In this document: positions 17,353 to 35,989 of the stretch, one piece after another
How the letters are laid out: each line of letters starts with the position of its first letter
How positions within the stretch are numbered: position 1 is the stretch's first letter
NCBI GenBank assembly: GCA_964533265.1
Contig: CAZHJW010000002.1
Location: forward strand, 1-53,943
Source of the DNA: an uncultured Pedosphaera sp.
GTDB lineage: Bacteria; Verrucomicrobiota; Verrucomicrobiia; Limisphaerales; UBA1100
DNA: 53,943 nucleotides
Direction of reading: 5' to 3'
Notes under the pieces: model-generated
What the model saw: the letters and a program-made list of their open reading frames with translations, nothing else
Database searches by the model: none
Told to the model about the DNA's origin: nothing
Position numbers and translations under genes: made by a program

Positions 17353-17718
17353 ATGGATCTCCTGAATAATCTTCTTACTGTGATACTGTTTCTTAACAGC
17401 CTCTTCCTAATCCTGCTGGTTCTGGTGCAACTACCTAAGAAAGAAGCGGGATTGGGCACCGCCTTTGGCGGGGGAGCAACGGACGCCCTCTTCGGGGCAG
17501 GGGCAGGCAATGTCCTCACCAAACTTACCAAATGGAACGCCATAATTTTTCTTCTCTTGTGCCTACTATTATCTCTGGATTTCATGCGCCCGAAGGATCT
17601 TAGTGAAACACTTGGACAGAATGATGCGGCAATCGAAAAAACTCCCGCATCTCCGGACCTCAATGGAACACAAAATAAATCGGGCAAACCCGATCCGGAA
17701 AAGAAAAAGAACGATTAA
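17353..17718 (+). CDS. secG: Preprotein translocase subunit SecG
   Basis: 121 aa. It has two hydrophobic helices flanking a Gly-rich loop (GLGTAFGGGATDALFGAGAGNVLTKLTKW). Its position after tpiA is typical. The stop shares a TTAA with the convergent ABC ATPase gene. Confidence 0.85.
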   Translation: MDLLNNLLTVILFLNSLFLILLVLVQLPKKEAGLGTAFGGGATDALFGAGAGNVLTKLTKWNAIIFLLLCLLLSLDFMRPKDLSETLGQNDAAIEKTPASPDLNGTQNKSGKPDPEKKKND

Positions 17719-19466: not shown

Positions 19467-19468
19467 TG

Positions 19469-20608: not shown

Positions 20609-21525
20609 GCGGTGCGCAGACGAGGGTTGAGCCAAATTTGGACAATGTCCACCAACAGATTCAGCATGATAATTAAGGCCGCAAAGAAAAGAACTGTGCC
20701 CATCACCATCGTATAATCACGATTGAAGGCCGCCTCCACAAAGTGCCTGCCTAAACCGGGAATCTGGAAAATGGTTTCTACCACAAAAGAGCCGGATATA
20801 AGACCGGCGACCGCCGGCCCGAGAAAGGCCACAACGGGCATCAGTCCCCCTTTAAGAGCATGCTTCAAAAGAACACGTGTTTCACTGGCTCCCTTTGCAC
20901 GGGCCGTCCGGATATAATCCTGACTCATGACCTCCAGCATTCCACCGCGCGTGAGACGGGCAACATAGGCGGCATATACGCCTCCCAGGGTTAAGGCCGG
21001 CAACACACGATCAGACCATTGATCCCAACCTGAAGCATTAAACCACTCCAATTTCAGAGAAAACAGTAGGATCAAAATCGGTCCCATGACAAATGTCGGC
21101 ACACAAATACCAATCATGGCCAAAGTCATTGGAGTATAATCAAGGAAACTATTAGGCTTGATGGAGGCTATTAACCCCGCAGCTAATCCCAAAACCAACG
21201 CAACCAAAAGAGACCATAACCCCAATTCCGCTGAGACAGGAAAAGCTTTAACTATTACTTCATTGACCTTGCGATTTGAGTGTTTGAACGATGGTCCCAA
21301 ATCCCCGACAGCCAGTTTCCGCAGAAAATCCAGATATTGTCCCGACAGGGGTTTATCCAGCCCATAATGCGCTTCAAGTTGTTTTTTAATCTCAGGATCT
21401 TTAATCGGCTTTTCTCGGTCGAAGGGCCCTCCTGGGGTAAGGCGGAGCATGAAGAAGGTTATGGTGGCAATCACCAAAAGAATCGGAATGGCCTTGAGAA
21501 GCCTAAAGAAAATCAATTTCCACAT
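20605..21525 (-). CDS. Peptide ABC transporter permease (YejB/OppB-like)
   Basis: 306 aa. It has the N-terminal LLKAIPILLVIATITFFMLRLTPGGP and the EAA loop TARAKGASETRVLLKHALKGGLMPVV. Confidence 0.9.
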   Translation of the reverse strand: MWKLIFFRLLKAIPILLVIATITFFMLRLTPGGPFDREKPIKDPEIKKQLEAHYGLDKPLSGQYLDFLRKLAVGDLGPSFKHSNRKVNEVIVKAFPVSAELGLWSLLVALVLGLAAGLIASIKPNSFLDYTPMTLAMIGICVPTFVMGPILILLFSLKLEWFNASGWDQWSDRVLPALTLGGVYAAYVARLTRGGMLEVMSQDYIRTARAKGASETRVLLKHALKGGLMPVVAFLGPAVAGLISGSFVVETIFQIPGLGRHFVEAAFNRDYTMVMGTVLFFAALIIMLNLLVDIVQIWLNPRLRTA

Positions 21526-21540
21526 TGGAACTACGGAAGA

Positions 21541-23166: not shown

Positions 23167-23209
23167 TGTTGAATCGTGAGTCAAGCCGGCCCTATCGGGC
23201 AAGTGGATT

Positions 23210-24841
23210 CTATTGATTTGGATTTGGCCGCGGCCCCTCGACCACCGGTTCCTCGGGCAGTTCACCCTTTTTTAGTCCTAGCACCGTTCTCAAGCGTGCC
23301 ACCAAAACCGGATCCTCCTCGACCAAAAAAGCACGCAAGCGGGCAATCCGAACTGTCTGAAAGGGCGGAATACTAACACGGTTCTCAGCAGCATTGTCAA
23401 ACCTGTCAGTATAACGTTTATGAAGGTCTTCAGCCATGTTCAAATGCTTAACTGCTTCCTCCTCTTCACCCAAGGCCAAATGAGTAAAGTGCCGAATCAT
23501 GAGACCGATCAAAAGAGCCAACGTCTTATCAATACCTCCCCGACTAACCGCTTCTTTTAAACGGTTAAGAACAAACTTATCCATGTCATAAGTCCAATTC
23601 CCTTCATTATCTTTAGGTTCTATGCCTCCAGTAAAATAAACCATTTTATCAGGGTACCTATCCAAGGCGACCTTCAGCCATTTAACCGCATCCTTTTCAC
23701 GGTTGTAATAGTAATTCCACTCCACCACCCTCCGTAAAAAGTTCATGTGGGCAATTTCATAAGTACCTTCAACATGGGCTTCACGCTCCTTCTTAGCCAT
23801 AACGGCCATATCTATATAAGCCTGATGGGTGCGTTCGGTTAAATCCATATTAGGAACAACGGTAAGTGGATTATTGAAGTACTGATCGGGTGGAATCGAC
23901 TGACCTGAAGGTGTGTTTAATTTACCCCGATCAAAACTGTACATCATAGATTGGTAAACAATTCGCTCCAACTTCCGCAAATCATTCTCCTTGGACGGAT
24001 TATGCCGACAGCGCTTGAGTCCCACCATCCCCCAGTAAATTGCCTGAGTTTCGGGTTTGCGCCAATCCAAGGCGTAAACAACCGTTCCATCATCCTTCTC
24101 CACTCGCCCGTACTTCTCATTAACAGCCTTCATCTCGCGGGGATCAAGCTTGTATTCCTTACGTAATCGCTGCACACGTGCAGCGACCTCTTCATTGGGG
24201 GGATCAATTAACTCATCAAAGTTAGGCACCCCTCGCATGGTATTGGCCTGAGCTTCATCCTTCCACAACACTGCAGTCATCGCCTGCAACCAACGAAGCT
24301 TATAATAGCGATGATGATCATCCAAATTATGGCCAATCTTATGCTGAAAAATCCATCCTAACTCATGGTAGATAAGGGGTTCCTGCGGATTGTACTTTAT
24401 CCCGTGATCCCGTAATAAACTGACCCCCTCTGAAACATATTTCCACCTCGTCTCCGCATCAGGATAAGTCACCGATATATTGTAGGCCATGTTCCACGCC
24501 CGATTTCTCCATACCATGGAGACTTTCGGCTGAAGCTGCGCAACCCACTCTGAGAGCTGCATTTGTTCCTGATATTTTTTCTGCAGCTGCATTTCATTGG
24601 CACGCAGCCAGAGATAGGAAGAAATAAGGCCACGGAACCCTCCTAATGACTGAGTAGTTAACGCCAATAATGGCGGGGCATCCTGCAGTGGCTCCAGATA
24701 AGTTGGACTGAGTTCTCCACGCTGAGTATTAAGCCCATCCTGAACCAGAAACAGTCCCGCCAAAGAAACCATAACCATGCCAATCAACGCAATCTTGGGC
24801 GGCGTATCCATCGTGGTACTGCGGTTTTCCCTATCCATCAT
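23210..24841 (-). CDS. Hypothetical membrane-anchored protein (no family recognised)
   Basis: 543-aa ORF. Its ATG overlaps the stop of the upstream permease-like gene (ATGA at 24838-24841). It has one N-terminal TM (IALIGMVMVSLAGLFLV) and is otherwise helix-rich and soluble-looking (WNMAYNISVTYPD, YHELGWIFQHKIG). Confidence 0.7.
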   Translation of the reverse strand: MMDRENRSTTMDTPPKIALIGMVMVSLAGLFLVQDGLNTQRGELSPTYLEPLQDAPPLLALTTQSLGGFRGLISSYLWLRANEMQLQKKYQEQMQLSEWVAQLQPKVSMVWRNRAWNMAYNISVTYPDAETRWKYVSEGVSLLRDHGIKYNPQEPLIYHELGWIFQHKIGHNLDDHHRYYKLRWLQAMTAVLWKDEAQANTMRGVPNFDELIDPPNEEVAARVQRLRKEYKLDPREMKAVNEKYGRVEKDDGTVVYALDWRKPETQAIYWGMVGLKRCRHNPSKENDLRKLERIVYQSMMYSFDRGKLNTPSGQSIPPDQYFNNPLTVVPNMDLTERTHQAYIDMAVMAKKEREAHVEGTYEIAHMNFLRRVVEWNYYYNREKDAVKWLKVALDRYPDKMVYFTGGIEPKDNEGNWTYDMDKFVLNRLKEAVSRGGIDKTLALLIGLMIRHFTHLALGEEEEAVKHLNMAEDLHKRYTDRFDNAAENRVSIPPFQTVRIARLRAFLVEEDPVLVARLRTVLGLKKGELPEEPVVEGPRPNPNQ

Positions 24842-26853
24842 TCACCTCCTCCAGCATCGATAAGATCTCCCTCTCCTGCTGCAAGCCTGTGACGCAAGAT
24901 TAAGGCGACACCTATAATCCCAACTATGAAGGCCCCGGTTAGACCCCAAAGGAGCATTCCAACAAAAACGGCTAACAGCATAACGAGAAATTCGGTGCCA
25001 ATAAAGGAATCTCCTCCTCCGGACTCACTTGTAAGCGCCAATTGCCGACTGGAAAGAATATAACTTCCCAAGAATCCCAAGGTAAGACCGGAAATACCCC
25101 AAATATACCCGTATGCACGCAATAATTCCATCCAGGTGATACTCCGCCCCTCTGTCAGTTTTTCAATCGGAGAATAATCTTTTATCGGCTTAATCAAAGT
25201 AACCATCACTTTGAAGGCCGGTACGGCAAAGTTATCGACATAGGACTTGTCACGCTGGCCGTCAGTATAGGTCTGCATGATAGTTCCCTTATCAACCACA
25301 TCCTGCACCAGACCCAAGGCGGCAACCCCGATCAGGATACCCAAACAGGCAAATGCGGACATCGCGAAGGACATGAAACTCCCCGCAAATAAACCCAAAG
25401 CCGCCAGAGCCCCCAACCACGCAAAAACGATGCCCAAGGCACGGAAATAGTTTATCGCAAACCCCGTCTCCCGGTACACCATCTCAATTCCTTCACCCCC
25501 TATCCGCCCCCGCGAATCAAGATAAGGCACCTTCAACTTTGCCGGCCCTGCATTGTACATCGCAATCGACATAACGTCATTTGTACCGAAGATATTCACC
25601 CTCTTCCCCTTCTCATTTGTGGGCAATGATACAGGCATCGGCACCTCATGTACTTTTCTAGCATCCAATTGAATATCGCCACCCCGAAAACGTTGATTTC
25701 CCGGTCCAAAACGAAATAAAAGGGGATACAATCGGTCTGCCTTGTAACTTACCTGAGTATCCTCAAAATATAAACGCATGGTAAACATATCCAGTTCGTC
25801 GGGATTCCATCGCGCCGGCTTTTTAAATTGGAGCGCCAGGCCTTCTCCTTCGTTTAAAACCTGCGAATAGCCTTTAATTTCTGCTCTGATCTCGTTGGTG
25901 GCTTCCATTCTCTCAAAACTGTCCAGCTCTTGTGAAAGCTCACTCGGCTTAACACCCCCTTTCCTTTCAATTTCATTTTTTACCTGTAATAATTGAGCTT
26001 CACGCGTTGGCCAATACTGATCGAACATTCCTCCAATCCATGTTTCCAAAGGGCCACCCCTCGAACTCAAAGGCGCATTGGTAGCCGCCTGAAACAAAAC
26101 CCTTCGTTCGATTGTGGCTGTCATCGGGATGCGCGCGCGCGCCACCAATAGTTCCTCCCTTAGTTTCTTCTCCTCGACCCCGGCCAGTTCCTCCCTCATT
26201 TCGTCCGTCGGTCGTAATAAAGGTTCTCTTCCCTTAAGTTCATTGATCGTATTTTTTATCTGCTCCACTACCTGAGGATCCCCTCTCATTGCCTCACGTA
26301 AATCATCGAGTAAGGGTTGCGGCTCAGAAGTGCCCAAGGGAAGCCTATCGTTCTCGGGATCTTGGACAAAAACCGGGTTTCCGGAACGGATGGTTTCCAT
26401 GACAATTTCAAGGTCCGGTCGATTCTCCATTCTTTCCAACTCATCCCAAGTCAATTTGTTTGCCCGGTATTCCACCATGCCATACACGGTTCCCCCCGCG
26501 AAGATCAGTAAAACAAGATTCATGCTCATCACCCCGATCCACTTTCCCAACCAAATTTGCCAACGCGGGATGGGCTTGGTCACAACCATCTGTAATTGAT
26601 GATTCTCAATTTCATTAGCCAGTGAACCCGCTGAAATCCACAATGTAGCCGCCCCCATGATCGCAGTGATCATTGAGAGAGTGTAGGTAATCAGAATCTG
26701 GGTCATTCCAGCCGCAGATCCGTCATCTTTTACGATCAGTGGCAGCACCCCCACAGCCAATGTCAGAAGCACCAGCATTACCCAGAAGAAACGATAACGG
26801 ACCGAAGCCTTCCAAGTCAAAAAGACGACAGCGAATAGCGGTTTAACCCACAT
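24838..26853 (-). CDS. ABC-2-type permease-like membrane protein with a large soluble insertion
   Basis: 671 aa. The N-terminal TMs and the block SLANEIENHQLQMVVTKPIPRWQIWLGKW resemble the ExxxGT...KP..R motif of the ABC-2 (NosY/YhaP-like) permease family. About 340 charged, non-hydrophobic residues (roughly 25443-26472) are inserted before the C-terminal TM bundle. The gap to the ABC ATPase gene is 2 nt. Confidence 0.75.
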   Translation of the reverse strand: MWVKPLFAVVFLTWKASVRYRFFWVMLVLLTLAVGVLPLIVKDDGSAAGMTQILITYTLSMITAIMGAATLWISAGSLANEIENHQLQMVVTKPIPRWQIWLGKWIGVMSMNLVLLIFAGGTVYGMVEYRANKLTWDELERMENRPDLEIVMETIRSGNPVFVQDPENDRLPLGTSEPQPLLDDLREAMRGDPQVVEQIKNTINELKGREPLLRPTDEMREELAGVEEKKLREELLVARARIPMTATIERRVLFQAATNAPLSSRGGPLETWIGGMFDQYWPTREAQLLQVKNEIERKGGVKPSELSQELDSFERMEATNEIRAEIKGYSQVLNEGEGLALQFKKPARWNPDELDMFTMRLYFEDTQVSYKADRLYPLLFRFGPGNQRFRGGDIQLDARKVHEVPMPVSLPTNEKGKRVNIFGTNDVMSIAMYNAGPAKLKVPYLDSRGRIGGEGIEMVYRETGFAINYFRALGIVFAWLGALAALGLFAGSFMSFAMSAFACLGILIGVAALGLVQDVVDKGTIMQTYTDGQRDKSYVDNFAVPAFKVMVTLIKPIKDYSPIEKLTEGRSITWMELLRAYGYIWGISGLTLGFLGSYILSSRQLALTSESGGGDSFIGTEFLVMLLAVFVGMLLWGLTGAFIVGIIGVALILRHRLAAGEGDLIDAGGGE

Positions 26854-26855
26854 GG

Positions 26856-28058
26856 TTAGTCCCCACCCAAAAGGCCGGACAACTTGTCATCGACCTCATC
26901 GAGGCTTTTCTTTTCTGCCACCTTCTTTTCCATAGATGATTCTATTGGTGACTTGGGCTCCGGTTTGGTTTCGGAAAGTGAGTCCAGCTTCGCCTCGTCC
27001 ACTTTTGGCTCCGGAATTCCCACTGCTTCCACATCCCGCGTGGATTCGGGCTTGCCAGCTTCCTTGTCAGCCAAACGATTGAGCATCGTTTCAGCCTGAG
27101 TGGGCACAGGCTGGTCAGCCCGCAAAAATTCGGCAACTTCACTTCCTGAGGTTGCCCCTGAGGTCTCATCTGAAGCCCGCGCCTTTTCGACGACGTTCAA
27201 GAACAAGCTCTCAAGATTTTGTGAGGGATTATCCACTCGAATATTTTCCTTATCAGCGTGTCGCTGCATCACTTCTAGAACCTCCTTTTGAGCCACTTCA
27301 CTTAACGCAGGCATCGTAAACTGAACGGTATCACGCTCAGTCAAGAGTTCATCAAGCGTTCCGTACTGCTGAATTTTTCCCCCATAATAAATCACAGCAC
27401 GATCGCATACATCTTCTACATCGGCCAAAAGATGACTAGAAAGAAGCACTGTCTTACCACGGGCTTTCAAATTAAGGATGAGATCTTTGATTTCACGGCA
27501 ACCTACCGGGTCCATTCCTGCAGTCGGCTCATCCAAAATCACCAAATCCGGGTCATTAATGAGGGCTTGAGCAAGACCGATGCGCCGCTGCATCCCCTTG
27601 GAGAATTCACCTACCGTACGCATCTGCACGCCCTTTAGCCCAACCATTTCCAATAGCTGCTCAGACCGGCGCTTTTTTTCCCTTGAATCCAGCGCAAACA
27701 AACCCCCGAAAAAGTCCAGCGTCTCCTCCGAGTTCAGGTACCTATATAAGTAGGATTCCTCAGGCAGATATCCAATTCGCTCCTTGGTTTTCACGTCGCG
27801 AGGCGAACGACCAAAAATCCGCACCACCCCGCGCGTAGGATTTAACAACCCCAACAATACCTTGATGGTTGTAGACTTACCCGACCCATTGGGGCCTAAC
27901 AACCCAAAAACCTCACCCTTACGAACCTCAAAGTTAACTTCATCAATCGCCTTGGCCTTGGGCCGCCCCCAGAAATCACAGAACGTTTTCTCCAATGAAC
28001 GAACAACAACGACATCATCGCTGTTAGTCACCCCTTTGGTTGCTACAGGTGTTTCCAT
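26856..28058 (-). CDS. ABC transporter ATP-binding protein (ABC-2/CcmA-type) with a roughly 100-aa disordered C-terminal tail
   Basis: 400 aa. Walker A GPNGSGKST, signature FSKGMQRR, Walker B LVILDEPTAGMD, H-loop LLSSHLL. The C-terminal tail is rich in S/T/E/K/P (SDETSGATSGSE...SLSETKPEPKSPIESSMEKKVAEKK). Confidence 0.92.
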   Translation of the reverse strand: METPVATKGVTNSDDVVVVRSLEKTFCDFWGRPKAKAIDEVNFEVRKGEVFGLLGPNGSGKSTTIKVLLGLLNPTRGVVRIFGRSPRDVKTKERIGYLPEESYLYRYLNSEETLDFFGGLFALDSREKKRRSEQLLEMVGLKGVQMRTVGEFSKGMQRRIGLAQALINDPDLVILDEPTAGMDPVGCREIKDLILNLKARGKTVLLSSHLLADVEDVCDRAVIYYGGKIQQYGTLDELLTERDTVQFTMPALSEVAQKEVLEVMQRHADKENIRVDNPSQNLESLFLNVVEKARASDETSGATSGSEVAEFLRADQPVPTQAETMLNRLADKEAGKPESTRDVEAVGIPEPKVDEAKLDSLSETKPEPKSPIESSMEKKVAEKKSLDEVDDKLSGLLGGD

Positions 28059-28072
28059 TGGATCGATTTTTC

Positions 28073-30052
28073 TTATGCGGCGGCAGTTGCCATTTCGTCA
28101 GATTTATCGACCGAATCCCCAGTCTTTTGGAAAGAATCAGCCTCGGGCGTATCAAAGGCTTCAAATTCTTCGCCTTCGCGCACCAAACGTGCGCTGTTAA
28201 AGACAACAAAGAGTGACCCTAATACATTCAACATTGCCGCAAGAACCGGGGTAATAATGTTCAACGCCGCCAACACTAGTCCAACAATTACGAATAATAC
28301 TCCAAACACAAAATTCTGATTGATAACTGACCGGGTCATTCGAGAAAGATGCATCAGGAAAGGAAGCCGCCGTAAGTCGTTATTCATCAACGCGATTGTA
28401 GCACTTTGAATCGCAACATCGCTTCCTGCCGCTCCCATAGCGATACCGATGTCTCCAGCCTTAAGTGCTGGGGCATCATTTACTCCGTCCCCTACAAATG
28501 CGACCTTATAGCCTTTTGCGCGCAAGTCCTCCACATATTTAACCTTCTCAGCTGGGAAACAATCCGCCTGCACATTGTCACAACCCACCTCCGCGGCCAC
28601 ACGCTCAGCCACCGGAGCACGGTCTCCTGACACAATCGCGAGCCGTCTTACCCCCTCCAGGGTCAATTCACTCAGCGATTCACTCGCTTCAGAACGAATT
28701 TCATCGGTCATCCCAACCCACCCAATAAATTTTCCATCCCGGGCTACGTGCATCAGGCTGTATCCCTGCGTTTCATCCAAATCTACAGAACCTGCAATGT
28801 CCCCTTCTATTTCATTTTCCTCTAACCAAACCTGACGACCTACCAGAACCGACTGACCGTTCACTTGAGCCTTCACCCCTTTCCCCGCTATTTCTGAAAA
28901 ATCCTTGGGTTCAACCAAATCCACTCCCGCCTCAGTAGCCAAGGACATAATCGCCTTGGCCGTCGGGTGATTACTGTATTGCTCTGCAGAAGCAGTCAGC
29001 AACAAAAGCTCAGCAGGCTTGACTCCTTCCACGGGAGCTAAACGACTAACCTTGAGAGTGCCCGTTGTAATTGTTCCGGTTTTATCAAAAATGAATGCAT
29101 TAATTCGGGCAGCTAATTCGATGTCACTGACCTGCTTGATCATAATTCCCAAACGGGAAGCGGTCGCCACCGCCGCCACCATGGCCGTTGGCGTTGCCAG
29201 AATAAAGGCAACTGGACTGGAAACAATAAAAACAGAAATGACGCGGTTCAGGTCTTGGGTAAATGCCCAGACCAATGCTCCAATGACGAGGACAAGTGGT
29301 GTGTAAAAACCCATGTACTGGTCTACGATCTTTTCAAAATGAGTCTTGGACTGGGAAGCCTGTAGAATGAGTTCGCGCACCCGACCAAACTCAGTTTCCA
29401 CGCCCACCTTCGTGACTTTTACTTCCAATACACCGTCAATATTTATAGTGCCTTGAAACACGGGATCGCCGGGACTTTTGTCCACTGGCAATGATTCCCC
29501 AGTAATATTCGCCTGATTGATAGATCCACTACCTGTAAGTATATCCCCATCAGCCGGCACGTTGTCCCCCGGCCTCACGCGTATATGATTTCCAACCGCC
29601 AAATCATTGGCTGAAACCTCTTCTTCGACACCTTCCTCAGTAATTCGACTGGCCTTGGTTGGTGCACGCTCCAATAACCGGCGAATCGCCTCCTGTGCCC
29701 CCGAAGCTGTACGGGATTCAATCATTTCTGCGAGCAGCATGAAGAAAGCTACTAAGCCCGCAGCGTGATAGTCCCCGTGAGCAAAGGTGGCGAGTACCGC
29801 AATAGCCACCAGTTCATTCGTGGTAAGCAAACCCTGTTGCAGATCCTTAACGGTGGTACGGAAAATTCGAATGCCAAGAATAATTGCCCCTATCATTGCA
29901 CTGAAATCGCCAACCCGAGATTCTTCTCCAAGAATCCAGTCGGCAAAAAAGCCATTCACGATGAACACAATACCCGCAAATATAAATTTCACGGTTGTAG
30001 CCGACGACGAGTCCTCGTTTGCAGATTCAGATTGGCTCACCATGCTGTCCAT
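28073..30052 (-). CDS. P-type ATPase, P1B-like architecture, atypical (SPV instead of the CPC-type motif, no N-terminal metal-binding domain)
   Basis: 659 aa. Motifs: TGES (ITGESLPV), DKTGTIT, the N-domain HP dipeptide (SNHPTAKA), GDGVNDAPAL. Four TMs precede the A-domain, as in P1B pumps. The TM4 motif reads VSSPVAFILATPTA (SPV = 29210-29218). Confidence 0.9.
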   Translation of the reverse strand: MDSMVSQSESANEDSSSATTVKFIFAGIVFIVNGFFADWILGEESRVGDFSAMIGAIILGIRIFRTTVKDLQQGLLTTNELVAIAVLATFAHGDYHAAGLVAFFMLLAEMIESRTASGAQEAIRRLLERAPTKASRITEEGVEEEVSANDLAVGNHIRVRPGDNVPADGDILTGSGSINQANITGESLPVDKSPGDPVFQGTINIDGVLEVKVTKVGVETEFGRVRELILQASQSKTHFEKIVDQYMGFYTPLVLVIGALVWAFTQDLNRVISVFIVSSPVAFILATPTAMVAAVATASRLGIMIKQVSDIELAARINAFIFDKTGTITTGTLKVSRLAPVEGVKPAELLLLTASAEQYSNHPTAKAIMSLATEAGVDLVEPKDFSEIAGKGVKAQVNGQSVLVGRQVWLEENEIEGDIAGSVDLDETQGYSLMHVARDGKFIGWVGMTDEIRSEASESLSELTLEGVRRLAIVSGDRAPVAERVAAEVGCDNVQADCFPAEKVKYVEDLRAKGYKVAFVGDGVNDAPALKAGDIGIAMGAAGSDVAIQSATIALMNNDLRRLPFLMHLSRMTRSVINQNFVFGVLFVIVGLVLAALNIITPVLAAMLNVLGSLFVVFNSARLVREGEEFEAFDTPEADSFQKTGDSVDKSDEMATAAA

Positions 30053-30058
30053 ACCTCG

Positions 30059-31162
30059 CTACTTTTGCTCCTCTTTTTCCATCTCCGGTGGCGGCTGGTT
30101 AATCAATAGTCGCAACTTCGTAGGACTTAATTTTCCCGTCTTGGAGACCAGGATGATCTTTATATCTTTGTTTTCAGTAATACTCTTCATTGTTTCAAAG
30201 TACAACTGTTCCATATAACGCCTTCTAGAGACCGAATCAGGATACTTTTGCACGATGTCCCTGAATCGATTGGCCAGAGAATCAACTGAAGCCCGTAATG
30301 CCTCCGCCTGATTTTCCGCCTGATTTCGAATTAACCCTCCCTCTCCACTATCGGAGACAATTGCCCGGCGAATAGCATCGGCACCGCTCTCTGCAGAGCT
30401 AATTGCCTCAGCAACTTGCGCATCCATTCCGTTGAAACTATCGTAGGCGTCCTGCGTCATGAATGGAAGTTTCACATCCTTACCGCTAATATTTACACGA
30501 AGCACCTCCACTCCGAGGTCATAGCTACGCACCAACTTATCGACTCGCCTCTTAACTGTTTCAGTAAACGCTGTTGGGTTTTCGAGTATGGCCGACAGAT
30601 TAGCCTCAGCAGCCGAGTAGGTGAGCCCATTATCCAGAACAAGTTGTAAAATTGTCGTGGCATCCGCAAAATCAAAAGTAAACCTGCTGGGTTCAGAAAC
30701 CCGATAGGTCATTTCAGCCTTAACGTGAATAATCTTATCATCCATCGTGATGGCGTATCCATCATACATGGCATCTACTGGACGTTGGTTTACATTGTCA
30801 CCAACTTCCATCCGACCTATGGGCGCGTGCCACGCAGCAACCGACTTAACGGGCCTCTCACGCGCAATTTCTACTTTTTCATCAATTGGAAAAGGCCAGG
30901 CAAAGCGAATGCCCGCCTTATACACATCCTCCGCACTGGTTGTTCGAGCTTGACCAAAACGCAACAAAATCGCCCCTTCACTATCTTCATCCACTGAAAA
31001 GGTATTGGAAAAAATCAGGTACACCACCAGAACCGCGATCACGAGTTTAAGTATCGTAAAACTACTCTGTAACGCCTGCTCCATGGCGCGCGAACCGGCC
31101 TCGTCTCCCAAGTCCATTTCCGGACCGTCTTTCAATTTGGTAGAATCTTTATTCATGACCAT
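30059..31162 (-). CDS. SPFH/band-7 domain protein (HflK-like)
   Basis: 367 aa. It has one N-terminal TM (ILKLVIAVLVVYLIF), then a VDEDSEGAILLRFGQ...IRFAWPFPID start typical of HflK/HflC family SPFH domains, and a helical C-terminus. Confidence 0.85.
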   Translation of the reverse strand: MVMNKDSTKLKDGPEMDLGDEAGSRAMEQALQSSFTILKLVIAVLVVYLIFSNTFSVDEDSEGAILLRFGQARTTSAEDVYKAGIRFAWPFPIDEKVEIARERPVKSVAAWHAPIGRMEVGDNVNQRPVDAMYDGYAITMDDKIIHVKAEMTYRVSEPSRFTFDFADATTILQLVLDNGLTYSAAEANLSAILENPTAFTETVKRRVDKLVRSYDLGVEVLRVNISGKDVKLPFMTQDAYDSFNGMDAQVAEAISSAESGADAIRRAIVSDSGEGGLIRNQAENQAEALRASVDSLANRFRDIVQKYPDSVSRRRYMEQLYFETMKSITENKDIKIILVSKTGKLSPTKLRLLINQPPPEMEKEEQK

Positions 31163-31186
31163 GTGGCCTAGTTACTGACAAAAAAT

Positions 31187-32125
31187 TTACTCTTTTGGCT
31201 GCTCTTCTTTGAGGGGCGAATCCAGCCCTCTCAATAAGCCGAATGGCCCCATGGTATCATCCAAGATCAGCGTGGTTTGCTTTTTGACCGAGTTCTCCAA
31301 TGCCTCAAGCTGCATCAGGAAAGTGGCCAACTTGGGGTCCTGCTCCATCAGTTTAAACTGCTGCAGGGCATCACCTTGAGCTTTGGCCAAAGTTGCCTTG
31401 GCTTCAGCATGCGATTTTTGAAGGGCTGTTTCCTTATCGTTTAGTGCCTTTGCTCGAAGAACATTCGCCTCTTGGTGAGCAATATGCACGGCAGTCCCGG
31501 CCTTATTGGTCCACTGGGTTACCATAGCGTTTAATACAACATCCAAATTACTCTGGGGCACACCGACTTTTCGAATTCCGACAAATTGTATTTCCACTCC
31601 CAGCTTCTTTGCCTTTTCCTTGGCCGCATCCCGAATGTTCTGCTCCAACTCACTAAACTTTACCTTCTGGTTATTCTTGGCCTCACCTTCCTGAACAAAA
31701 CTACCAAAACTGGTGGCTACCGCACTGACCTGAGCGTTCTTTTCGGTATCCACGATTACGAGCAACTGCTTCTCCGCATCCTTCATTCGCGCGTCTGAAT
31801 CAGAACCACTCGTACGCTCCATGAAACGTGCAGGGTCAGAAATCTTCCACCCAAAATAAAACTGCATCATCACGCTCTTGCCGTTCTGAGTCATTACCTG
31901 ATCATAACGGGTTGTTTTTACGTGAATTCGTCTATCAAACTTATAGACATGCTCAATTGGCCACGGCCACTTGTGCCTGAGCCCTGGTTCTACAATAGGA
32001 TCACTGTTCTTTCCGAGACGGTTCACAAAAGCGATCTCGTCCTGACGCACTTGAAAGGTAAACATATAAGAGCCAAAGATAAGCAACAGTAAACCAAAGA
32101 TTACGATGTTAACGATTTTCTTCAT
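31187..32125 (-). CDS. SPFH/band-7 domain protein (HflC-like)
   Basis: 312 aa. It has an N-terminal TM (IVIFGLLLLIFGSYMF), then VRQDEIAFVNRLGK...LRHKWPWPIEHV, and a coiled-coil-like C-terminal half. Confidence 0.85.
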   Translation of the reverse strand: MKKIVNIVIFGLLLLIFGSYMFTFQVRQDEIAFVNRLGKNSDPIVEPGLRHKWPWPIEHVYKFDRRIHVKTTRYDQVMTQNGKSVMMQFYFGWKISDPARFMERTSGSDSDARMKDAEKQLLVIVDTEKNAQVSAVATSFGSFVQEGEAKNNQKVKFSELEQNIRDAAKEKAKKLGVEIQFVGIRKVGVPQSNLDVVLNAMVTQWTNKAGTAVHIAHQEANVLRAKALNDKETALQKSHAEAKATLAKAQGDALQQFKLMEQDPKLATFLMQLEALENSVKKQTTLILDDTMGPFGLLRGLDSPLKEEQPKE

Positions 32126-32131
32126 AATGAG

Positions 32132-34114
32132 TTATTTTTTCTTGGTGGAAGGAACCTTAATATCCGTCATTCCTCGCCGAATGGCTTCATGCAAATCGAG
32201 ATCCACCTCTATTTCATGATTTCTCGCAGCCACTACAAACTTACGCCCATTTGCAACCGCACGCTCAAAAGTAGTGAGATAGAGCCACAAGGGATATACA
32301 TTGGCCGCCTGCCTGAACGGTTCCTGAGAACCCTTTTGTCGCTGGAAACGAACTTGGGCCTCCAGCCTAAGCAAATCTGACGTCACTTTTGCATTGTATT
32401 CAATAAGCCCAACCTCATTGGTACGCTCGGCATCGAGCCTCATTTTCTCGTGAACAGCCTCAAGTTTATCCAGCTGACTCATTAATCCAGCCGTAACTGG
32501 ATCCTCGAACGCCGCCGCCACCGGCATGCCGTATAAGTCCGGCCTCTCATCTCCGGGATCAGCTCCCCTCTCTATGACATTTTGGGGCGATTCAGCGGGT
32601 GGACGGAGGTTGGCCACCCCAACAAACAGCACCTCTACTCCCAGATCATTAACCTTGTCTTGAATATTACTCTTTAGACTCTCCTGAGCGTTCTTACGCC
32701 CTTTGATGAGCAACTCTCCAAAATCATGATTTAAAAAATAGTTGACCACTTCACGAGTCGCAATGTTCCTAAGTAACTGTTCAGGATTCGAGTATCTAAG
32801 CCAACCGTCTTCCAACCCCTTCAGTTTTTTACCGTCACCGACGCTGCGAATACGATACAGAACCGGCACACTGGCCACCATAAGATTGGCCTCAACCGTT
32901 TCGTCACCGCTACCAACCAGAAAGAAGAGCTCCCCGGTTTTCTTTTTCGACTCATAATCCTTTCCATCCGGCTGCATCCACAAGCCGGGTCTATCGATAA
33001 ACTCAGGTGGCATATCATCCTCAGGCAATGGTTCCAAACCCACGTAAAAAGTGTGTACCTGATCGGGGTAGAAACGCTCTATTGAAGCAAATGGCCAGGG
33101 CCATTTCAGGTGAATTCCCGACTCCAGCAACGACGATTGTTGCCCCTGCCGTGCTCCATCCACCAACCTACCGCGTACTGAAGGCTCAATCACAACAATT
33201 GTGGTCGAGAGCCAAAGAATAATAATCTGCAGGCCAATAATAACCCCCAAGCGTTCGCGTAAAAACTGATATCCCCATGTTTCAGACACCTTGAATCCAA
33301 ACTGGTAGTCCAAAATCTGCCCAGCCGTAGTGAAGAGGTTCTCAGGCTTGGCAACCAACCCGATCAAACGACTCTGATAAAGCAGGCGAGACTGGCGGCC
33401 CGTAACTCGCGGCCGATATATTTCAAAAATCATCCCTAGCAGGTTCTCCACCGCCGCCACTCCAAGTAAAATGGTTAAACCAGAGGCAACATACACGTCG
33501 GCCCGGGCATCCTTGAATGAAACGGCCACAACCGCGGCCAAAATGAAATTCAGATACGCGCCGAAAAGAATATAATCGGAAGCTGGTTGTAAAAACCGTT
33601 GCTTCTCAATCCGCGCCAGATTCGAGGCAAACTGACCACGCAGGAAAAAAATCAAACCCATCAAAGCCGCGCCGAAAAGCGCCTTGTAGGGATCAACAAT
33701 CACCCAACTATCAAGTGTTTCAAATGCAGCAGACAATCGTTGGGTGGAAATAAAATAAATCCCATAGATTTGAAGACCGAGCATTATGGTGGTCACCATA
33801 GGCATCCCCCATTTCTCAAATTGCTCACGCGACCTTTTAGCCGGAAGTACTTCGCCTTCTTCAAAGAGTGCCTCGGCAGTCGCCCCCTGTTTAATCTCCT
33901 CAAGCTCTCTTGCCTCCATCTGCTCACGCTCACGCAACTGCATGTGGAGGAGGCTTACCATCGCCACCACAAAACCAAGAATCATAAAGGCGGCAATCGC
34001 ATAGGTAGTCACCGAACTGGTTCCCAATGCTAAAAGAACCGAACCCACAACACCTAGCAAGGTGATAAGCAGGTTCCATAAACCACCACGTCTATCGATT
34101 TTATCCGTTGCCAT
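32132..34114 (-). CDS. Polytopic membrane domain fused to an SPFH/band-7 domain
   Basis: ORF 32132-34120 (GTG). ATG 34114 is more likely. About 6-7 N-terminal TMs (for example LLITLLGVVGSVLLALG, MVTTIMLGLQIYGIYFI, LGVIIGLQIIILWLSTTIVVI) are followed by an SPFH start, IHLKWPWPFASIERF, and an HflK/C-like helical tail. It overlaps the upstream gene by 14 nt. Confidence 0.8.
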   Translation of the reverse strand: MATDKIDRRGGLWNLLITLLGVVGSVLLALGTSSVTTYAIAAFMILGFVVAMVSLLHMQLREREQMEARELEEIKQGATAEALFEEGEVLPAKRSREQFEKWGMPMVTTIMLGLQIYGIYFISTQRLSAAFETLDSWVIVDPYKALFGAALMGLIFFLRGQFASNLARIEKQRFLQPASDYILFGAYLNFILAAVVAVSFKDARADVYVASGLTILLGVAAVENLLGMIFEIYRPRVTGRQSRLLYQSRLIGLVAKPENLFTTAGQILDYQFGFKVSETWGYQFLRERLGVIIGLQIIILWLSTTIVVIEPSVRGRLVDGARQGQQSSLLESGIHLKWPWPFASIERFYPDQVHTFYVGLEPLPEDDMPPEFIDRPGLWMQPDGKDYESKKKTGELFFLVGSGDETVEANLMVASVPVLYRIRSVGDGKKLKGLEDGWLRYSNPEQLLRNIATREVVNYFLNHDFGELLIKGRKNAQESLKSNIQDKVNDLGVEVLFVGVANLRPPAESPQNVIERGADPGDERPDLYGMPVAAAFEDPVTAGLMSQLDKLEAVHEKMRLDAERTNEVGLIEYNAKVTSDLLRLEAQVRFQRQKGSQEPFRQAANVYPLWLYLTTFERAVANGRKFVVAARNHEIEVDLDLHEAIRRGMTDIKVPSTKKK

Positions 34115-35828
34115 CGCCACTTAATTCCCTGTTTTCAAACATCCATATTGCCGCCGATAAAGCCAAAGTTACGTAAAGTAACACATATATACTGGCCGTG
34201 CCCAAATACCGCATCGGAACAATGCCCTGATCATATTTAGTCTTAAAACGCGTCTCACCCAATTCCTCCGTCTGCGGATTCATGGAATCGGAGAGCCAGA
34301 AAAGCTGCCAGTTAGGGACCAAAACGTAAAGAAATTTTGCCCATACTGAGCCTGCTGTAATGCTAACCTCACGTTCGGTGGAAGAATCCCACTTATTTAA
34401 ACCGCCATTTTCAAGTTCCACCCAAAATGCCAGATGCCCAGGCACCACCGGAGTCTTTACCTGTTCCTCCAAACGTCGGAATTCAATAAGAACCTCTTTT
34501 TTATCATCGTTCCGCTCCAAATCTGCCTCCCGGTTTTCGATTTCCTCCATTATCTTGGGTAACAGTGTCACCTCCAATGACTCACCGGGGAATTGTTCAG
34601 GCATCAATTGGCGCCCCAAGCGAATCATTTCTCGCTCCACCGGAACATTCCAACGCTCTTTCATGTCGTAATCCAAAAGTTTTTTCAAGCCATCATAATC
34701 AATCTTTACTACATTCGTCTGAACATTCCCCAGTGAAATTAGACCTTCTTTGGCGTTGAACTCTTTGAGGTCGGGTTTGGAGCCGGTCACATCTACTTCA
34801 ACCTTGTACTCCATATTTGCCAAGCGTGGAACCCCTCGCAGCTGCATCCGGAAGGCGGAGTAGTTGCCTGCCTTATTCCCAGGCGGATTCCAGGTCATAT
34901 ATTCACCCGCTCGAAGAAGCCCACCTCCTTGAGCAGCTGCCCCTAAAAGGTAATCGGACATCAAACCCAATATAAATAGGCCCGAACAAATCAACATCGT
35001 TGGCATCCAGCCGAACCTGGTGGAGCACATCAATGCGATTGCGGCCAATACCCATAGGGCAAATAAAATCAACAAGGCCAAACGAATCAACGACCAGTCC
35101 ACATCATCAGCAAAATGAGCCTTCTCTTCAGTGGGCAGAGGCTTTCCATCTGGGTCTATCCCTGCTCCATCAGTGAAAATCCAGATGTCGGAAAACTCAA
35201 CAGTAATCCCTGCCCCTGAATCGACCAAGTACCATGCACGAACTTTGTCCTGTGAGCATACGGTGAGAAAACCCAAAGTCATAGCCACTGCCAGCAGTCC
35301 CATGGCCCACGGCACAAACGGTTTTTGGAGTAAGTAATTGGCTAACCCTGCTATTAGAAACGCCAAGCCCACAAAAACACCAAAGGTCACGACTCCTACA
35401 ATGTCAGGATTACCATAAGCATCATAAGCCTGCCGACCAGCTAAAAGCAGCACGATTAAATTTAGGTAAGTTCCCGCTGTTAAGCCCGCCACAATACCCA
35501 AATATTTACCGATAATAAAATGCATCCGGCCCACAGGCTTAGAAAGCACGGCTAGAGCAGTACCGGTCGAAATTTCTCGAGAGAGGGATGAGGAAGCACA
35601 GATAACCGCCGCAACAAGTCCTGAGAAAAACATGACGGACAAGGTTCCATCTTTGACCATCTTAATATCAAAATTAACTGGAGCGTTATCGGTCCCGCCA
35701 AAACCAAAATATGGCACTGCCGCCAACATCAGCATAACCAAGGGTGATAACGTAAAAAGCAACAGGAAAACCGGTTGTCGAACCAGTTCCATGAACGCGT
35801 TGAGGGCGATGGTTGGAATCTGCCGCAT
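34101..35828 (-). CDS. ABC-2-type permease-like membrane protein with a C-terminal soluble domain
   Basis: 575 aa. The N-terminus IALNAFMELVRQPVFLLLF and the block SREISTGTALAVLSKPVGRMHFIIGKYLG are typical of ABC-2 (NosY-like) permeases. A roughly 200-aa non-hydrophobic region precedes the last TM. It is the first gene of the minus-strand operon. Confidence 0.75.
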   Translation of the reverse strand: MRQIPTIALNAFMELVRQPVFLLLFTLSPLVMLMLAAVPYFGFGGTDNAPVNFDIKMVKDGTLSVMFFSGLVAAVICASSSLSREISTGTALAVLSKPVGRMHFIIGKYLGIVAGLTAGTYLNLIVLLLAGRQAYDAYGNPDIVGVVTFGVFVGLAFLIAGLANYLLQKPFVPWAMGLLAVAMTLGFLTVCSQDKVRAWYLVDSGAGITVEFSDIWIFTDGAGIDPDGKPLPTEEKAHFADDVDWSLIRLALLILFALWVLAAIALMCSTRFGWMPTMLICSGLFILGLMSDYLLGAAAQGGGLLRAGEYMTWNPPGNKAGNYSAFRMQLRGVPRLANMEYKVEVDVTGSKPDLKEFNAKEGLISLGNVQTNVVKIDYDGLKKLLDYDMKERWNVPVEREMIRLGRQLMPEQFPGESLEVTLLPKIMEEIENREADLERNDDKKEVLIEFRRLEEQVKTPVVPGHLAFWVELENGGLNKWDSSTEREVSITAGSVWAKFLYVLVPNWQLFWLSDSMNPQTEELGETRFKTKYDQGIVPMRYLGTASIYVLLYVTLALSAAIWMFENRELSGDGNG

Positions 35829-35976
35829 TCGTTTCTTGCTAACAGGGGGGCGCGCATCATACGCAAATTTAACTTTATGGCAATGCGAAACCTACGGCCT
35901 TTATTGCACGTTGAATCTCGACAATTCCGCGTTATTCCCTTAGGTTTTTTACACGCGTGGTGGGCATTACGCGGCT

Positions 35977-35982
35977 AGGAGG
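35977..35982 (+). promoter_or_regulatory. Shine-Dalgarno-like AGGAGG, 7 nt upstream of ATG 35990
   Basis: aggagg at 35977-35982, followed by aattccc and then ATG. This supports 35990 rather than 35957 as the kinase start. Confidence 0.5.
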
Positions 35983-35989
35983 AATTCCC

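What the first reader, a model, noticed from the sequence alone, without database searches (positions are those of the whole stretch)
23210..35828. Eight-gene, translationally coupled membrane operon: split ABC-2 transporter + three SPFH paralogues + Cys-less P1B-like ATPase + orphan
Seen in sequence: eight consecutive minus-strand ORFs have spacers of -14, 6, 24, 6, 14, 2 and -4 nt (ATGA at 24838-24841), so they are almost certainly one transcript. The order is:
- ABC-2-type permease-like, 575 aa
- polytopic SPFH fusion, 660 aa
- SPFH, 312 aa
- SPFH, 367 aa
- P1B-like ATPase, 659 aa
- ABC ATPase, 400 aa
- second ABC-2-type permease-like, 671 aa
- 543-aa orphan
The block then continues co-directionally, with gaps of 43 nt or less, into a YejABEF-like importer down to 17715.
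Established knowledge: SPFH proteins (HflK/C, stomatin, flotillin) build oligomeric cages or microdomains around membrane clients, classically FtsH or NfeD partners. Neither partner is encoded here.
Inference: the SPFH trio may scaffold or gate the two primary-active transporters encoded between and around them. I know of no characterised system with this composition, so it is my best candidate for an undescribed membrane system in this window.
Basis: partly seen in the sequence, partly recalled or inferred. Interest (0 to 1): 0.7.

Follow-up and report, generated by a model that had tools for sequence, protein, structure and literature searches.

The report
Conserved SPFH–metal pump–ABC transporter gene cluster
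Eight neighbouring membrane-protein genes (three SPFH scaffold proteins, a heavy-metal-type P-type ATPase, an ABC-2 transporter and a helical-repeat protein) stay together across two bacterial phyla and match no described system, so they probably form one uncharacterised membrane machine.

Summary
Eight minus-strand ORFs (23210-35828) have exactly the reported spacers and domain content.

The cluster is not a local accident. In 80 Verrucomicrobiota loci the order A-B-C-D-E-F-G-H is colinear in 38 of 43 loci with enough flank, and A-E are present in every eligible locus. Three Phycisphaerae (Planctomycetota) loci carry all eight components in a rearranged order.

- The "orphan" has more than 1,700 homologues. 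It models as a membrane-anchored TPR-like solenoid.
- The Cys-less ATPase is a derived state of this marine clade. Most orthologues have a His/Cys-rich N-terminal tail, CPC in TM4 and a TM6 His. All three are lost here, while the catalytic motifs are kept.
- The Opp/Yej-like importer downstream is not part of the conserved core.

The polytopic SPFH protein is a dedicated 7-TM plus SPFH fusion family. Its most conserved part is a cytoplasmic loop.

No profile cut-off files the cluster under HflKC, GldAFG or NosDFY. No NfeD, FtsH or defence-family match was found, and no paper describing it was found.

Best reading: an SPFH-scaffolded metal-pump/ABC-2 platform. Physical association and substrate are inferred, not shown.

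The parts
34101..35828 (-). A: ABC-2-type permease paralogue 1 (575 aa). The usual form in other genomes is about 320 aa. This clade carries an insertion of about 200 aa at residues ~300-495.
   Evidence: PF12679 scores 31.7 bits against a 27.2 cut-off. It lies directly upstream of B in 75 of 75 eligible loci. Its C-terminal module is related to that of G (hhalign probability 81.5%).
32132..34120 (-). B: 7-TM polytopic domain fused to an HflK-like SPFH domain and a long coiled coil (662 aa from GTG; alternative ATG at 34114).
   Evidence: Band_7 is. The AF2 model has pLDDT 81 and shows 7 TM helices, an SPFH domain and a helix at 534-622. Foldseek finds HflK/C chains 7vhq and 9cz2 at E 6e-11. 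The N-terminal domain occurs in 838 representative clusters, and the full-length proteins among the best 150 carry it N-terminal to further sequence; Band_7 was confirmed in the 10 scanned. The TM6-TM7 loop (residues 236-281) is the most conserved region.
31187..32125 (-). C: HflC-like SPFH protein with one N-terminal TM helix (312 aa).
   Evidence: Band_7 scores 66 bits. TIGR01932 (hflC) scores 90.8 bits, below its 134.4 cut-off. Present in 74 of 74 eligible loci.
30059..31162 (-). D: HflK-like SPFH protein with one N-terminal TM helix (367 aa).
   Evidence: Band_7 scores 39 bits. TIGR01933 (hflK) scores 83.2 bits, below its 159.4 cut-off. Present in 67 of 67 eligible loci.
28073..30052 (-). 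E: P1B-topology P-type ATPase (659 aa). Catalytic motifs are intact. The TM4 motif is SPV (usual form CPC), TM6 has Asn (usual form His), and there is no His/Cys N-terminal tail.
   Evidence: TIGR01525 scores 532 bits and TIGR01512 452 bits. Motif tables over 60 orthologues are. Present in 58 of 58 eligible loci and the most conserved protein of the cluster (median 65% identity).
26856..28058 (-). F: ABC ATPase of the DrrA/GldA-like (ABC-2) type with a conserved C-terminal extension (400 aa).
   Evidence: ABC_tran scores 113 bits. drrA scores 209 bits and GldA 207 bits, both below their cut-offs. Present in 46 of 52 eligible loci.
24838..26853 (-). G: ABC-2-type permease paralogue 2 (671 aa; the usual form is about 460 aa).
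   Evidence: PF12679 scores 27.9 bits against 27.2. The family profile weakly matches NosY 7o0y (E 0.1). It is related to A. Present in 44 of 49 eligible loci.
23210..24841 (-). H: protein with one N-terminal TM helix and an all-alpha TPR-like solenoid (543 aa). Its start overlaps the stop of G by 4 nt.
   Evidence: No Pfam, NCBIfam or PDB sequence match. More than 1,741 homologues. The AF2 model has pLDDT 82. Foldseek finds only generic TPR proteins. Present in 40 of 44 eligible loci.
35856..35883 (-). Promoter-like site (TTGCCA, 16 nt, TATGAT) 28 nt upstream of the start of A. Candidate only.
   Evidence: The number of such sites in the region does not exceed the shuffled expectation.

Best explanation
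The eight genes encode one vertically inherited inner-membrane module found in the PVC superphylum (Verrucomicrobiota and Phycisphaerae).

Shown:
- The gene set is kept together across two phyla.
- It contains three SPFH paralogues: an HflC-like protein, an HflK-like protein, and a dedicated fusion of a 7-TM domain to an HflK-like SPFH domain.
- It contains a P1B-type ATPase whose usual form has the hallmarks of a transition-metal pump.
- It contains the parts of a heterodimeric ABC-2 (type V) transporter: permeases A and G with ATPase F.
- It contains a TM-anchored TPR-like protein, H.

Inferred:
- B, C and D co-assemble into an HflK/C-style cage or microdomain that faces the periplasm.
- The 7-TM anchor of B and its ultra-conserved cytoplasmic loop dock the cytoplasmic ATPase domains of the pump and/or the ABC transporter.
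- Pump and ABC-2 transporter therefore work inside one scaffolded platform for export or periplasmic handling of a divalent transition metal. The TM6 His aligns with the metal-site His of the P1B-4 pump sCoaT.
- H acts as an adaptor for the G/F half.

In this window's marine clade the pump has lost its His/Cys tail, CPC and the TM6 His. It keeps DKTGT, TGES, SxHP and GDGVNDAP and remains highly conserved. So here the platform persists with an altered, or no longer thiophilic, substrate.
For: - Synteny. A is present in 75/75, C in 74/74, D in 67/67, E in 58/58, F in 46/52, G in 44/49 and H in 40/44 eligible loci. The full order is colinear in 38 of 43, with B down to about 32% identity.
- Junctions. 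Median spacers are 22 nt or less at every junction except E|F.
- Second phylum. Phycisphaerae loci L084-L086 carry all eight homologues in a different order and orientation.
- B family. The 7-TM domain sits N-terminal to further sequence in the full-length proteins among the best 150 of 838 representative clusters, and the 10 scanned have Band_7.
- B fold. Its best structural matches are HflK/C, erlin, prohibitin, stomatin and flotillin cage subunits.
- B loop. Residues 236-281 are the most conserved region across both phyla (mean top-residue frequency 0.76; 15 of 46 columns at 95% or more).
- E metal hallmarks. Most of the 53 orthologues outside the window's marine clade have His-rich tails, usually with a paired-Cys (CxxC, CxC or CC) motif; 51 of 60 have CPC; 52 of 60 have the TM6 His, which aligns with the 'HEGST' His of sCoaT.
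- E in this clade. 5 of 8 conserved Cys/His columns are lost, against 32 of 342 other conserved columns. Catalytic motifs are intact.
- Precedents. P1B pumps with dedicated PacL scaffold proteins are described in PMC13460109. A solved stomatin-aquaporin complex, 9zd2, is listed.
Against: - There is no direct evidence of physical interaction or co-transcription.
- C and D could simply be these organisms' general HflC/HflK, acting on an FtsH encoded elsewhere.
- The E|F junction is loose (29% of spacers exceed 150 nt), toxin-antitoxin modules insert there, and F-G-H is not nearby in about 10% of loci. The two halves may therefore be separable.
- No metal-binding motif was found in A, G or H.
- Loss of conserved His in the SPFH trio of this clade is only marginal (3 of 5 against 43 of 230, p 0.05, one lineage).
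- The window's own pump lacks every predicted metal ligand, so 'metal platform' may not describe this locus.
- The similarity of B's TM domain to CDF transporters is weak (E about 3e-3, TM-score about 0.5) and lacks the CDF site residues.
Confidence: 0.45

Rival explanations
1. Juxtaposed but independent systems. C and D are the lineage's ordinary HflC/HflK modulators of an FtsH encoded elsewhere. E is a stand-alone metal-efflux pump. A/F/G is a stand-alone ABC-2 exporter. They share only a chromosomal neighbourhood or an operon.
For: C and D give their best NCBIfam matches to hflC and hflK. In E. coli, hflKC is not adjacent to ftsH (established knowledge). The E|F junction is loose, and F-G-H is missing nearby in 4-6 loci.
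Against: Co-localisation survives gene-order rearrangement between two phyla. A-E are present in every eligible locus, at down to 25-35% identity. Permease A travels with the SPFH genes while its ATPase F lies beyond the pump, which interleaves the 'systems'. B is a dedicated fusion family seen only in this context in the loci examined. C and D score below the equivalog cut-offs.
Confidence: 0.25
2. A quality-control cage. The B/C/D assembly recruits an FtsH encoded elsewhere, as HflK/C does. The linked pump and ABC transporter are its preferred substrates or regulated clients, rather than partners in one transport pathway.
For: The best structural matches of B are the HflK/C-FtsH assemblies 7vhq and 9cz2. 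HflK/C is known to cage FtsH (established knowledge; PMC13220708).
Against: No ftsH lies in the window or in any of the loci with called genes that were examined. This reading does not explain the ultra-conserved cytoplasmic loop of B or the conserved TPR protein H.
Confidence: 0.15
3. A member of a described ABC-2 machine, either GldAFG-type gliding/secretion or NosDFY-type metallocentre assembly, with accessory genes.
For: F scores 207 bits on GldA. A and G weakly touch GldF. The G profile weakly matches NosY 7o0y (E 0.1). NosFY acts in copper-centre assembly (established knowledge), which would fit a metal pump.
Against: All scores are far below the cut-offs: GldA 207 against 402.6, GldF 20.6 and 16.7 against 288.5. 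No GldG, NosD, NosL or NosZ homologue is in the cluster or the window.
Confidence: 0.05
4. A mobile stress or anti-phage defence island.
For: Toxin-antitoxin modules are inserted at the E|F junction in several loci. F matches ABC-type ATPases in PADLOC.
Against: No other component matches PADLOC. The cluster is inherited vertically across a phylum in a housekeeping context, and its base composition is like the rest of the window.
Confidence: 0.03

Closest known systems
HflK/HflC-FtsH cage (E. coli; PDB 7vhq, 9cz2)
   Same: C and D are HflC-like and HflK-like, each with one N-terminal TM helix. The SPFH and coiled-coil part of B is structurally closest to HflK/C. Several paralogues are encoded side by side.
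   Different: There are three paralogues instead of two. One has a 7-TM anchor with a conserved cytoplasmic loop. All score below the equivalog cut-offs. No ftsH is nearby. The conserved neighbours are a P-type ATPase and an ABC-2 transporter.
PacL-CtpC/G/V 'effluxosomes' of Mycobacterium tuberculosis (PMC13460109)
   Same: A P1B metal ATPase is encoded with, and works with, a dedicated membrane scaffold protein.
   Different: The scaffold there is PacL, a small single-pass protein, not SPFH. No ABC-2 transporter or TPR protein is involved. Pfam found no PacL-type domain here.
P1B-4 ATPases such as sCoaT (PDB 7qbz), and the poorly characterised P1B-6 group
   Same: The core topology and catalytic motifs match. 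In the usual (CPC) form of E, the TM6 His aligns with the His of 'HEGST' in sCoaT. An 'H-N-x' TM6 motif recalls the P1B-6 hallmark quoted in PMC13460109.
   Different: TM4 is CPC in most orthologues and SPV here, not SPC or SCA. TM6 reads H[N/V]xGS. By my count the spacing from the TM5 Asn does not fit the quoted N-X18-H rule. The window's protein lacks all of these ligands.
NosFY / GldAF-type ABC-2 transporters
   Same: The permease family (ABC2_membrane_2) and the ATPase type (DrrA/GldA-like) are the same.
   Different: Two diverged permease paralogues carry an extra C-terminal TM module. There is no NosD/NosL or GldG. Scores are far below the family cut-offs.
SPFH genes with a dedicated linked membrane client (stomatin-NfeD operons; flotillin-associated rhodopsin, PMC10308929)
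   Same: An SPFH scaffold gene is kept next to a specific membrane protein (title and abstract only).
   Different: The clients here are two primary-active transporters. No NfeD is present. There are three SPFH paralogues.

Membership tests
HflK/HflC (FtsH modulators) | Match to the equivalog HMMs (TIGR01933 hflK, TIGR01932 hflC) above their cut-offs | tested here: not met
   C scores 90.8 bits against 134.4. D scores 83.2 against 159.4. B scores 22.9 against 159.4.
HflK/HflC (FtsH modulators) | N-terminal membrane anchor, SPFH domain and coiled coil | tested here: met
   Band_7 is found in B, C and D.
HflK/HflC (FtsH modulators) | Physical and functional association with FtsH | not testable with these tools
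   No ftsH is in the window or in the related loci whose genes were listed. Whole genomes could not be inspected.
P1B-type (heavy-metal) P-type ATPase | Catalytic motifs DKTGT, TGES, SxHP and GDGxNDxP, and a match to TIGR01525 above cut-off | tested here: met
   TIGR01525 scores 532 bits against 346. The motifs are present in the window sequence; DKTGT and TGES were tabulated and are present in all 60 orthologues.
P1B-type (heavy-metal) P-type ATPase | Cys-containing (C/S/T)P(C/H) metal-binding motif in TM4, plus TM5/TM6 ligands | tested here: not met
   The window has S-P-V in TM4 and Asn where orthologues have the TM6 His. The CopA ligand positions are replaced: Y/N by F/V and M by N. The feature is met in 51-53 of 60 orthologues from other lineages.
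P1B-4 subgroup (sCoaT-like) | SPC in TM4 and HEG[S/G]T in TM6 | tested here: not met
   Orthologues have CPC and H[N/V]xGS. Only the His position is shared. The window has neither.
ABC-2 (type V) transporter | ABC2_membrane-family permease(s) plus a DrrA/GldA-type ABC ATPase with intact Walker A and B, signature and H-loop | tested here: met
   PF12679 passes its cut-off for A and G. ABC_tran scores 113 bits for F. The F motifs GPNGSGKST, FSKGMQRR, LDEPT and SSH are readable.
GldAFG gliding-motility ABC transporter | Equivalog matches to GldA and GldF, and presence of GldG | tested here: not met
   GldA scores 207 against 402.6. GldF scores 20.6 and 16.7 against 288.5. There is no GldG match.
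NosDFY N2O-reductase maturation machine | NosY and NosF together with NosD (and NosL, NosZ) in the cluster | tested here: not met
   Only a weak match of the G profile to NosY (E 0.1). No NosD, NosL or NosZ domains are in the cluster or window.
Stomatin/flotillin-NfeD operon | An NfeD gene adjacent to the SPFH gene | tested here: not met
   No NfeD domain in any ORF scanned in the window, or in the called genes of L081 and L084-L086.
Known anti-phage defence systems (PADLOC) | Match of the components to defence-system HMMs | tested here: not met
   Only generic ABC-ATPase matches for F. There is nothing for the other seven proteins.

The most novel reading that the evidence does not exclude
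B, C and D form a three-paralogue SPFH cage whose enclosed clients are transporters (a P-type pump and an ABC-2 transporter) rather than a protease. The 7-TM paralogue uses its invariant cytoplasmic loop to couple the ATPase cycles to the periplasmic cage. This would be a PVC-specific 'caged transport platform'. In marine Verrucomicrobiales its pump has been re-tooled away from thiophilic metals.
Probability: 0.25. Interest if true: 0.85.

Novelty: new variant of a known kind. Interest (0 to 1): 0.62.

Why it matters
The roles of bacterial SPFH proteins beyond HflK/C-FtsH are largely unresolved. This cluster gives a genetically hard-wired link between an SPFH assembly and two primary-active transporters, kept across two phyla. 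That turns the question "what do SPFH cages enclose and why" into a tractable experiment.

It also defines three things that have not been described:
- a family of 7-TM plus SPFH fusion proteins;
- a large TPR-like protein family with no annotation;
- a P1B ATPase lineage with a natural series running from the full metal-ligand set to none. That series is useful for asking what a P1B pump does once its canonical site is gone.

Tried and rejected
- Sequence searches for H. A profile of H against PDB found nothing meaningful. Pfam scans of 40 H-family members gave only scattered sub-threshold hits.
- Fold search for H. It returned only generic TPR solenoids with TM-scores of 0.2-0.3, so no specific function could be assigned.
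- Profiles of A and G against PDB. A found nothing. G gave only NosY at E 0.1.
- CDF-like reading of B's TM domain. Foldseek gave YiiP, ZnT and SLC30A10 at E about 3e-3 and TM-score about 0.5. I do not rely on it, because the CDF DxxxD/HxxxD site residues are absent and any six-helix bundle can reach that score.
- PADLOC scan. It gave no defence assignment.
- Literature. Seven full-text searches found no paper on this cluster. One further call failed on a formatting error.
- Promoter and terminator scan. Site counts are no better than shuffles.
- Correlated loss of conserved His in the SPFH trio of the marine clade. It is only marginal (p 0.05) and rests on a single lineage, so it is not used as evidence.
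- Two protein-comparison runs failed on a frame error. They were replaced by a local BLAST/HMM comparison.


Full report
**Observation**

The ORF list shows eight consecutive minus-strand ORFs between 23210 and 35828. I call them A to H in transcription order.

| Gene | Coordinates | Length |
|---|---|---|
| A | 34101-35828 | 575 aa |
| B | 32132-34120 | 662 aa from GTG, 660 aa from the ATG at 34114 |
| C | 31187-32125 | 312 aa |
| D | 30059-31162 | 367 aa |
| E | 28073-30052 | 659 aa |
| F | 26856-28058 | 400 aa |
| G | 24838-26853 | 671 aa |
| H | 23210-24841 | 543 aa |

Profile searches confirm the domain calls:
- A and G pass Pfam's cut-off for ABC2_membrane_2, on their N-terminal parts only.
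- B, C and D each contain Band_7.
- E has E1-E2_ATPase and Hydrolase and scores 532 bits on TIGR01525 (heavy-metal P-type ATPase).
- F is a DrrA/GldA-like ABC ATPase.
- H matches nothing.

Downstream, at 17715-23265, lies an Opp/YejABEF-like importer: an SBP_bac_5 protein, two permeases and a fused double ATPase. Upstream and divergent is a gene for an FHA, Ser/Thr-kinase and LRR protein.

The rest of the window is ordinary PVC-type chromosome. It contains PSCyt/DUF1501 genes, glycolysis genes and threonine-pathway genes, with no ftsH and no NfeD. Base composition is uniform.

A promoter-like site sits 28 nt upstream of A, and a terminator-like site follows the importer. Such sites are no more frequent in this region than in shuffled sequence. 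Co-transcription is therefore plausible but untested.

**Is the cluster conserved?**

B has 651 or more homologues that cover its full length. A scan of one genome per GTDB species found at least 595 loci encoding a relative. The best 80, almost all labelled Verrucomicrobiota, were fetched with 10-kb flanks.

A tblastn of the window's proteins against these loci shows the same genes in the same order on the same strand. Counting only loci with enough flanking sequence:

| Gene | Present / eligible loci |
|---|---|
| A | 75 / 75 |
| C | 74 / 74 |
| D | 67 / 67 |
| E | 58 / 58 |
| F | 46 / 52 |
| G | 44 / 49 |
| H | 40 / 44 |

The complete colinear order A to H is found in 38 of 43 eligible loci. 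A 39th differs only by unrelated ABC-ATPase hits in its flanks. This holds with B at only about 32-35% identity.

Junctions are tight, with median spacers of 1-22 nt. The exception is E|F, with a median of 51 nt and 29% of spacers above 150 nt. In several loci toxin-antitoxin modules (HicAB-like, Phd/Doc-like) are inserted at that junction. In four eligible loci (six in the table) A-E are present but F-G-H are not nearby. The unit therefore looks bipartite: A-E and F-H.

The importer downstream is linked only in the nearest relatives, and the kinase only in a subset. Neither belongs to the core.

**Beyond the phylum**

The N-terminal polytopic domain of B (residues 1-315) was searched against 1.84 billion representative proteins.
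- It matched 838 clusters (653 at E of 1e-10 or better).
- Among the best 150, the full-length proteins (about 600-870 aa) carry it at their N-terminus; shorter hits look like fragments.
- The 10 longest or most distant hits scanned all have Band_7 behind it.

The most distant full-length group (about 810-830 aa) is annotated Phycisphaerae/Planctomycetes. Three such loci were examined, one of them on a 4.85-Mb contig. Each encodes homologues of all eight proteins in a rearranged layout: E on the plus strand, A on the minus strand, then B-C-D-F-G-H.

- Local BLAST confirms the homology. Identities are E 47-49%, F 52-56%, H 36-41% over its N-terminal 180 residues, A 26-32%, B 25-28%, C 27-29%, D 21-26% and G 28-40%.
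- The one F gene that was not called in the index was recovered by tblastn.

Gene content that survives a change of gene order between two phyla is the strongest evidence here for a functional link.

**The parts**

*B, C and D (SPFH proteins)*
- The AF2 model of B (pLDDT 81) shows seven TM helices, an SPFH domain and a helix of about 90 residues.
- Foldseek's best matches are HflK/C subunits in the FtsH cage structures (E 6e-11), followed by erlin, prohibitin, stomatin and flotillin cage subunits.
- Positive residues flank the cytoplasmic sides in a pattern that fits N-terminus in, SPFH domain out. This is the orientation of HflK/C. It is read directly from the sequence and is an inference.
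- Across both phyla the most conserved part of B is neither the SPFH domain nor the TM helices. It is the TM6-TM7 loop, residues 236-281 (EIYRPR ... LDYQFGFKVSETW). Its mean top-residue frequency is 0.76, and 15 of 46 columns are conserved at 95% or more. One intramembrane Glu (E225) is also invariant.
- C and D give their best matches to hflC and hflK but stay below the equivalog cut-offs. Family HMMs show that B is somewhat closer to D than to C.

*A, G and F (ABC-2 transporter)*
- A and G are paralogues. Both have a NosY-like ABC-2 N-terminal half, and their extra C-terminal TM modules are related (hhalign probability 81.5%).
- In most genomes A is about 320 aa and G about 460 aa. The window's clade carries large insertions in both.
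- F has all the ABC catalytic motifs and a conserved C-terminal extension.

*H*
- H is not an orphan. It has more than 1,741 homologues, all unnamed.
- It models confidently (pLDDT 82) as one TM helix followed by an all-alpha solenoid. Only generic TPR proteins resemble it.
- Which side of the membrane it faces was not determined.

**The pump**

The window's E has S-P-V where CopA has C-P-C, and the TM5 and TM6 ligand positions of CopA are also replaced. Aligning 60 orthologues shows that this is a derived state:
- 53 of 60 have Cys at the first position of the TM4 motif, and 51 have the full CPC.
- 52 of 60 have His in TM6. This His aligns with the His of 'HEGST' in the P1B-4 pump sCoaT (7qbz).
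- Most also carry an N-terminal tail rich in His, usually with a CxxC, CxC or CC pair, for example HDHEHGPSCGCGHEH.

Only the window's marine clade (the window plus L001, L002, L004, L006, L008 and L009) has SPV and Asn and no tail. L079 (CPV plus His) and L055 (CPS plus Tyr) look like intermediates.

DKTGT and TGES are unchanged in all 60 orthologues, and SNHP and GDGVNDAP are present in the window's protein. E is the most conserved protein of the cluster.

In this clade 5 of 8 otherwise conserved Cys/His columns of E are lost, against 32 of 342 other conserved columns. This comparison is descriptive, because the changes belong to one lineage.

NCBIfam places both forms above the cut-off of the 'cadmium family' IB2 model.

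I infer that the usual form of E is a divalent transition-metal pump. In this window the ATPase cycle is retained but the thiophilic metal site is gone.

A 2026 review notes that M. tuberculosis CtpC, a CPC pump grouped with the poorly known P1B-6 class, works with a dedicated scaffold protein, PacL, in 'effluxosomes' (PMC13460109). That is the nearest described concept.

**How it most likely works**

*Shown*
- The gene set and its conservation.
- The domain architectures.
- The motif states of E.

*Inferred*
- B, C and D co-assemble into an HflK/C-type structure on the periplasmic face.
- The 7-TM anchor and invariant cytoplasmic loop of B contact the cytoplasmic ATPase domains of E and/or F.
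- The pump and the A/G/F2 ABC-2 transporter therefore operate in one scaffolded membrane patch, with H as an adaptor.
- The substrate in most lineages is a transition metal. The substrate of the ABC-2 half is unknown.

I put about 0.85 on 'one co-functional system', and about 0.3-0.4 on the specific picture of a cage around the transporters.

*Rivals*
- An ordinary HflKC pair that happens to sit next to two independent transporters.
- An FtsH-recruiting quality-control cage for these transporters.
- A GldAFG-like or NosDFY-like machine. The cut-offs are missed by a wide margin and the hallmark partners are absent.
- A defence island. PADLOC gives no support and inheritance is vertical.

**Comparison and novelty**

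Every domain family here is known. The combination is not described in any library searched (Pfam, NCBIfam, PADLOC, PDB), nor in seven full-text literature searches. The 2009 survey of prokaryotic SPFH families also has no match for the search terms Verrucomicrobia, ABC or ATPase.

I classify it as a new variant of a known kind, namely an SPFH scaffold with dedicated clients. It comes with a new 7-TM plus SPFH fusion family and a new TPR-like family.

**Verdict**

Interest is 0.62.

Noticed in passing
window 35957-38473 (+): A gene for an FHA, Ser/Thr-kinase and LRR protein is transcribed divergently from A. The same gene sits in the same position in L001-L010, L017, L020, L043, L047 and L079, but not in most other loci. 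F carries a conserved Thr/Ser-rich C-terminal motif, ETSGATSG at residues 298-305, which could be a phospho-site. No link was tested.
   Followed up: partly
window 17715-23265 (-): An Opp/YejABEF-like importer lies directly downstream. As listed (GTG at 23265), the SBP ORF overlaps H by 56 nt. A lipoprotein-type signal (MFQRLLTSVLVCILLGC) begins at Met34, so the real start is probably at 23166, which leaves a 43-nt gap. The linkage to the cluster is seen only in close relatives.
   Followed up: partly
L030 9600-9997; L032 16212-16807; L065 15945-16522; L075 11968-12570; L059 16300-17975: Small toxin-antitoxin-like gene pairs (HicA/HicB-like, Phd/Doc- or Fic-like) are inserted repeatedly at the same E|F junction in different genomes. 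They were identified by eye from the translations, not by HMM.
   Followed up: partly
window 34101-35828 (A residues ~300-495) and 24838-26853 (G residues ~145-235 and further segments): The window's clade has large soluble insertions in both ABC-2 permeases, which are absent from most orthologues (A 575 aa against about 320; G 671 aa against about 460). The clades with insertions are also the ones that lost the pump's His/Cys tail. The fold and location of the insertions are unknown.
   Followed up: no
L010, L013, L016, L022, L026, L035, L041, L047, L058, L064 (record titles): Several MAG records that carry this Verrucomicrobia-type cluster are titled Akkermansia muciniphila, Klebsiella pneumoniae or Klebsiella sp., Proteobacteria bacterium or Candidatus Limnocylindria. 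The taxonomic labels are probably wrong, or the contigs mis-binned.
   Followed up: no
window 32132-34120, B residues 1-235: Foldseek gives weak but repeated similarity between the first six TM helices of B and the membrane domain of CDF metal transporters (YiiP 8f6h and 5vrf, ZnT3, SLC30A10; E about 3e-3, TM-score about 0.5). The CDF metal-site residues are not present. An invariant intramembrane Glu (E225) is.
   Followed up: partly
window 38470-43078 (-): Two tandem Sel1-repeat proteins (483 and 726 aa) and a PPIase-domain protein follow the kinase gene.
   Followed up: no
window 574-6291 (+): A PSCyt1/PSCyt2/PSD1 protein is followed by two DUF1501 paralogues. As listed, the two DUF1501 ORFs overlap by 169 nt, so at least one start is probably mis-set.
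   Followed up: no
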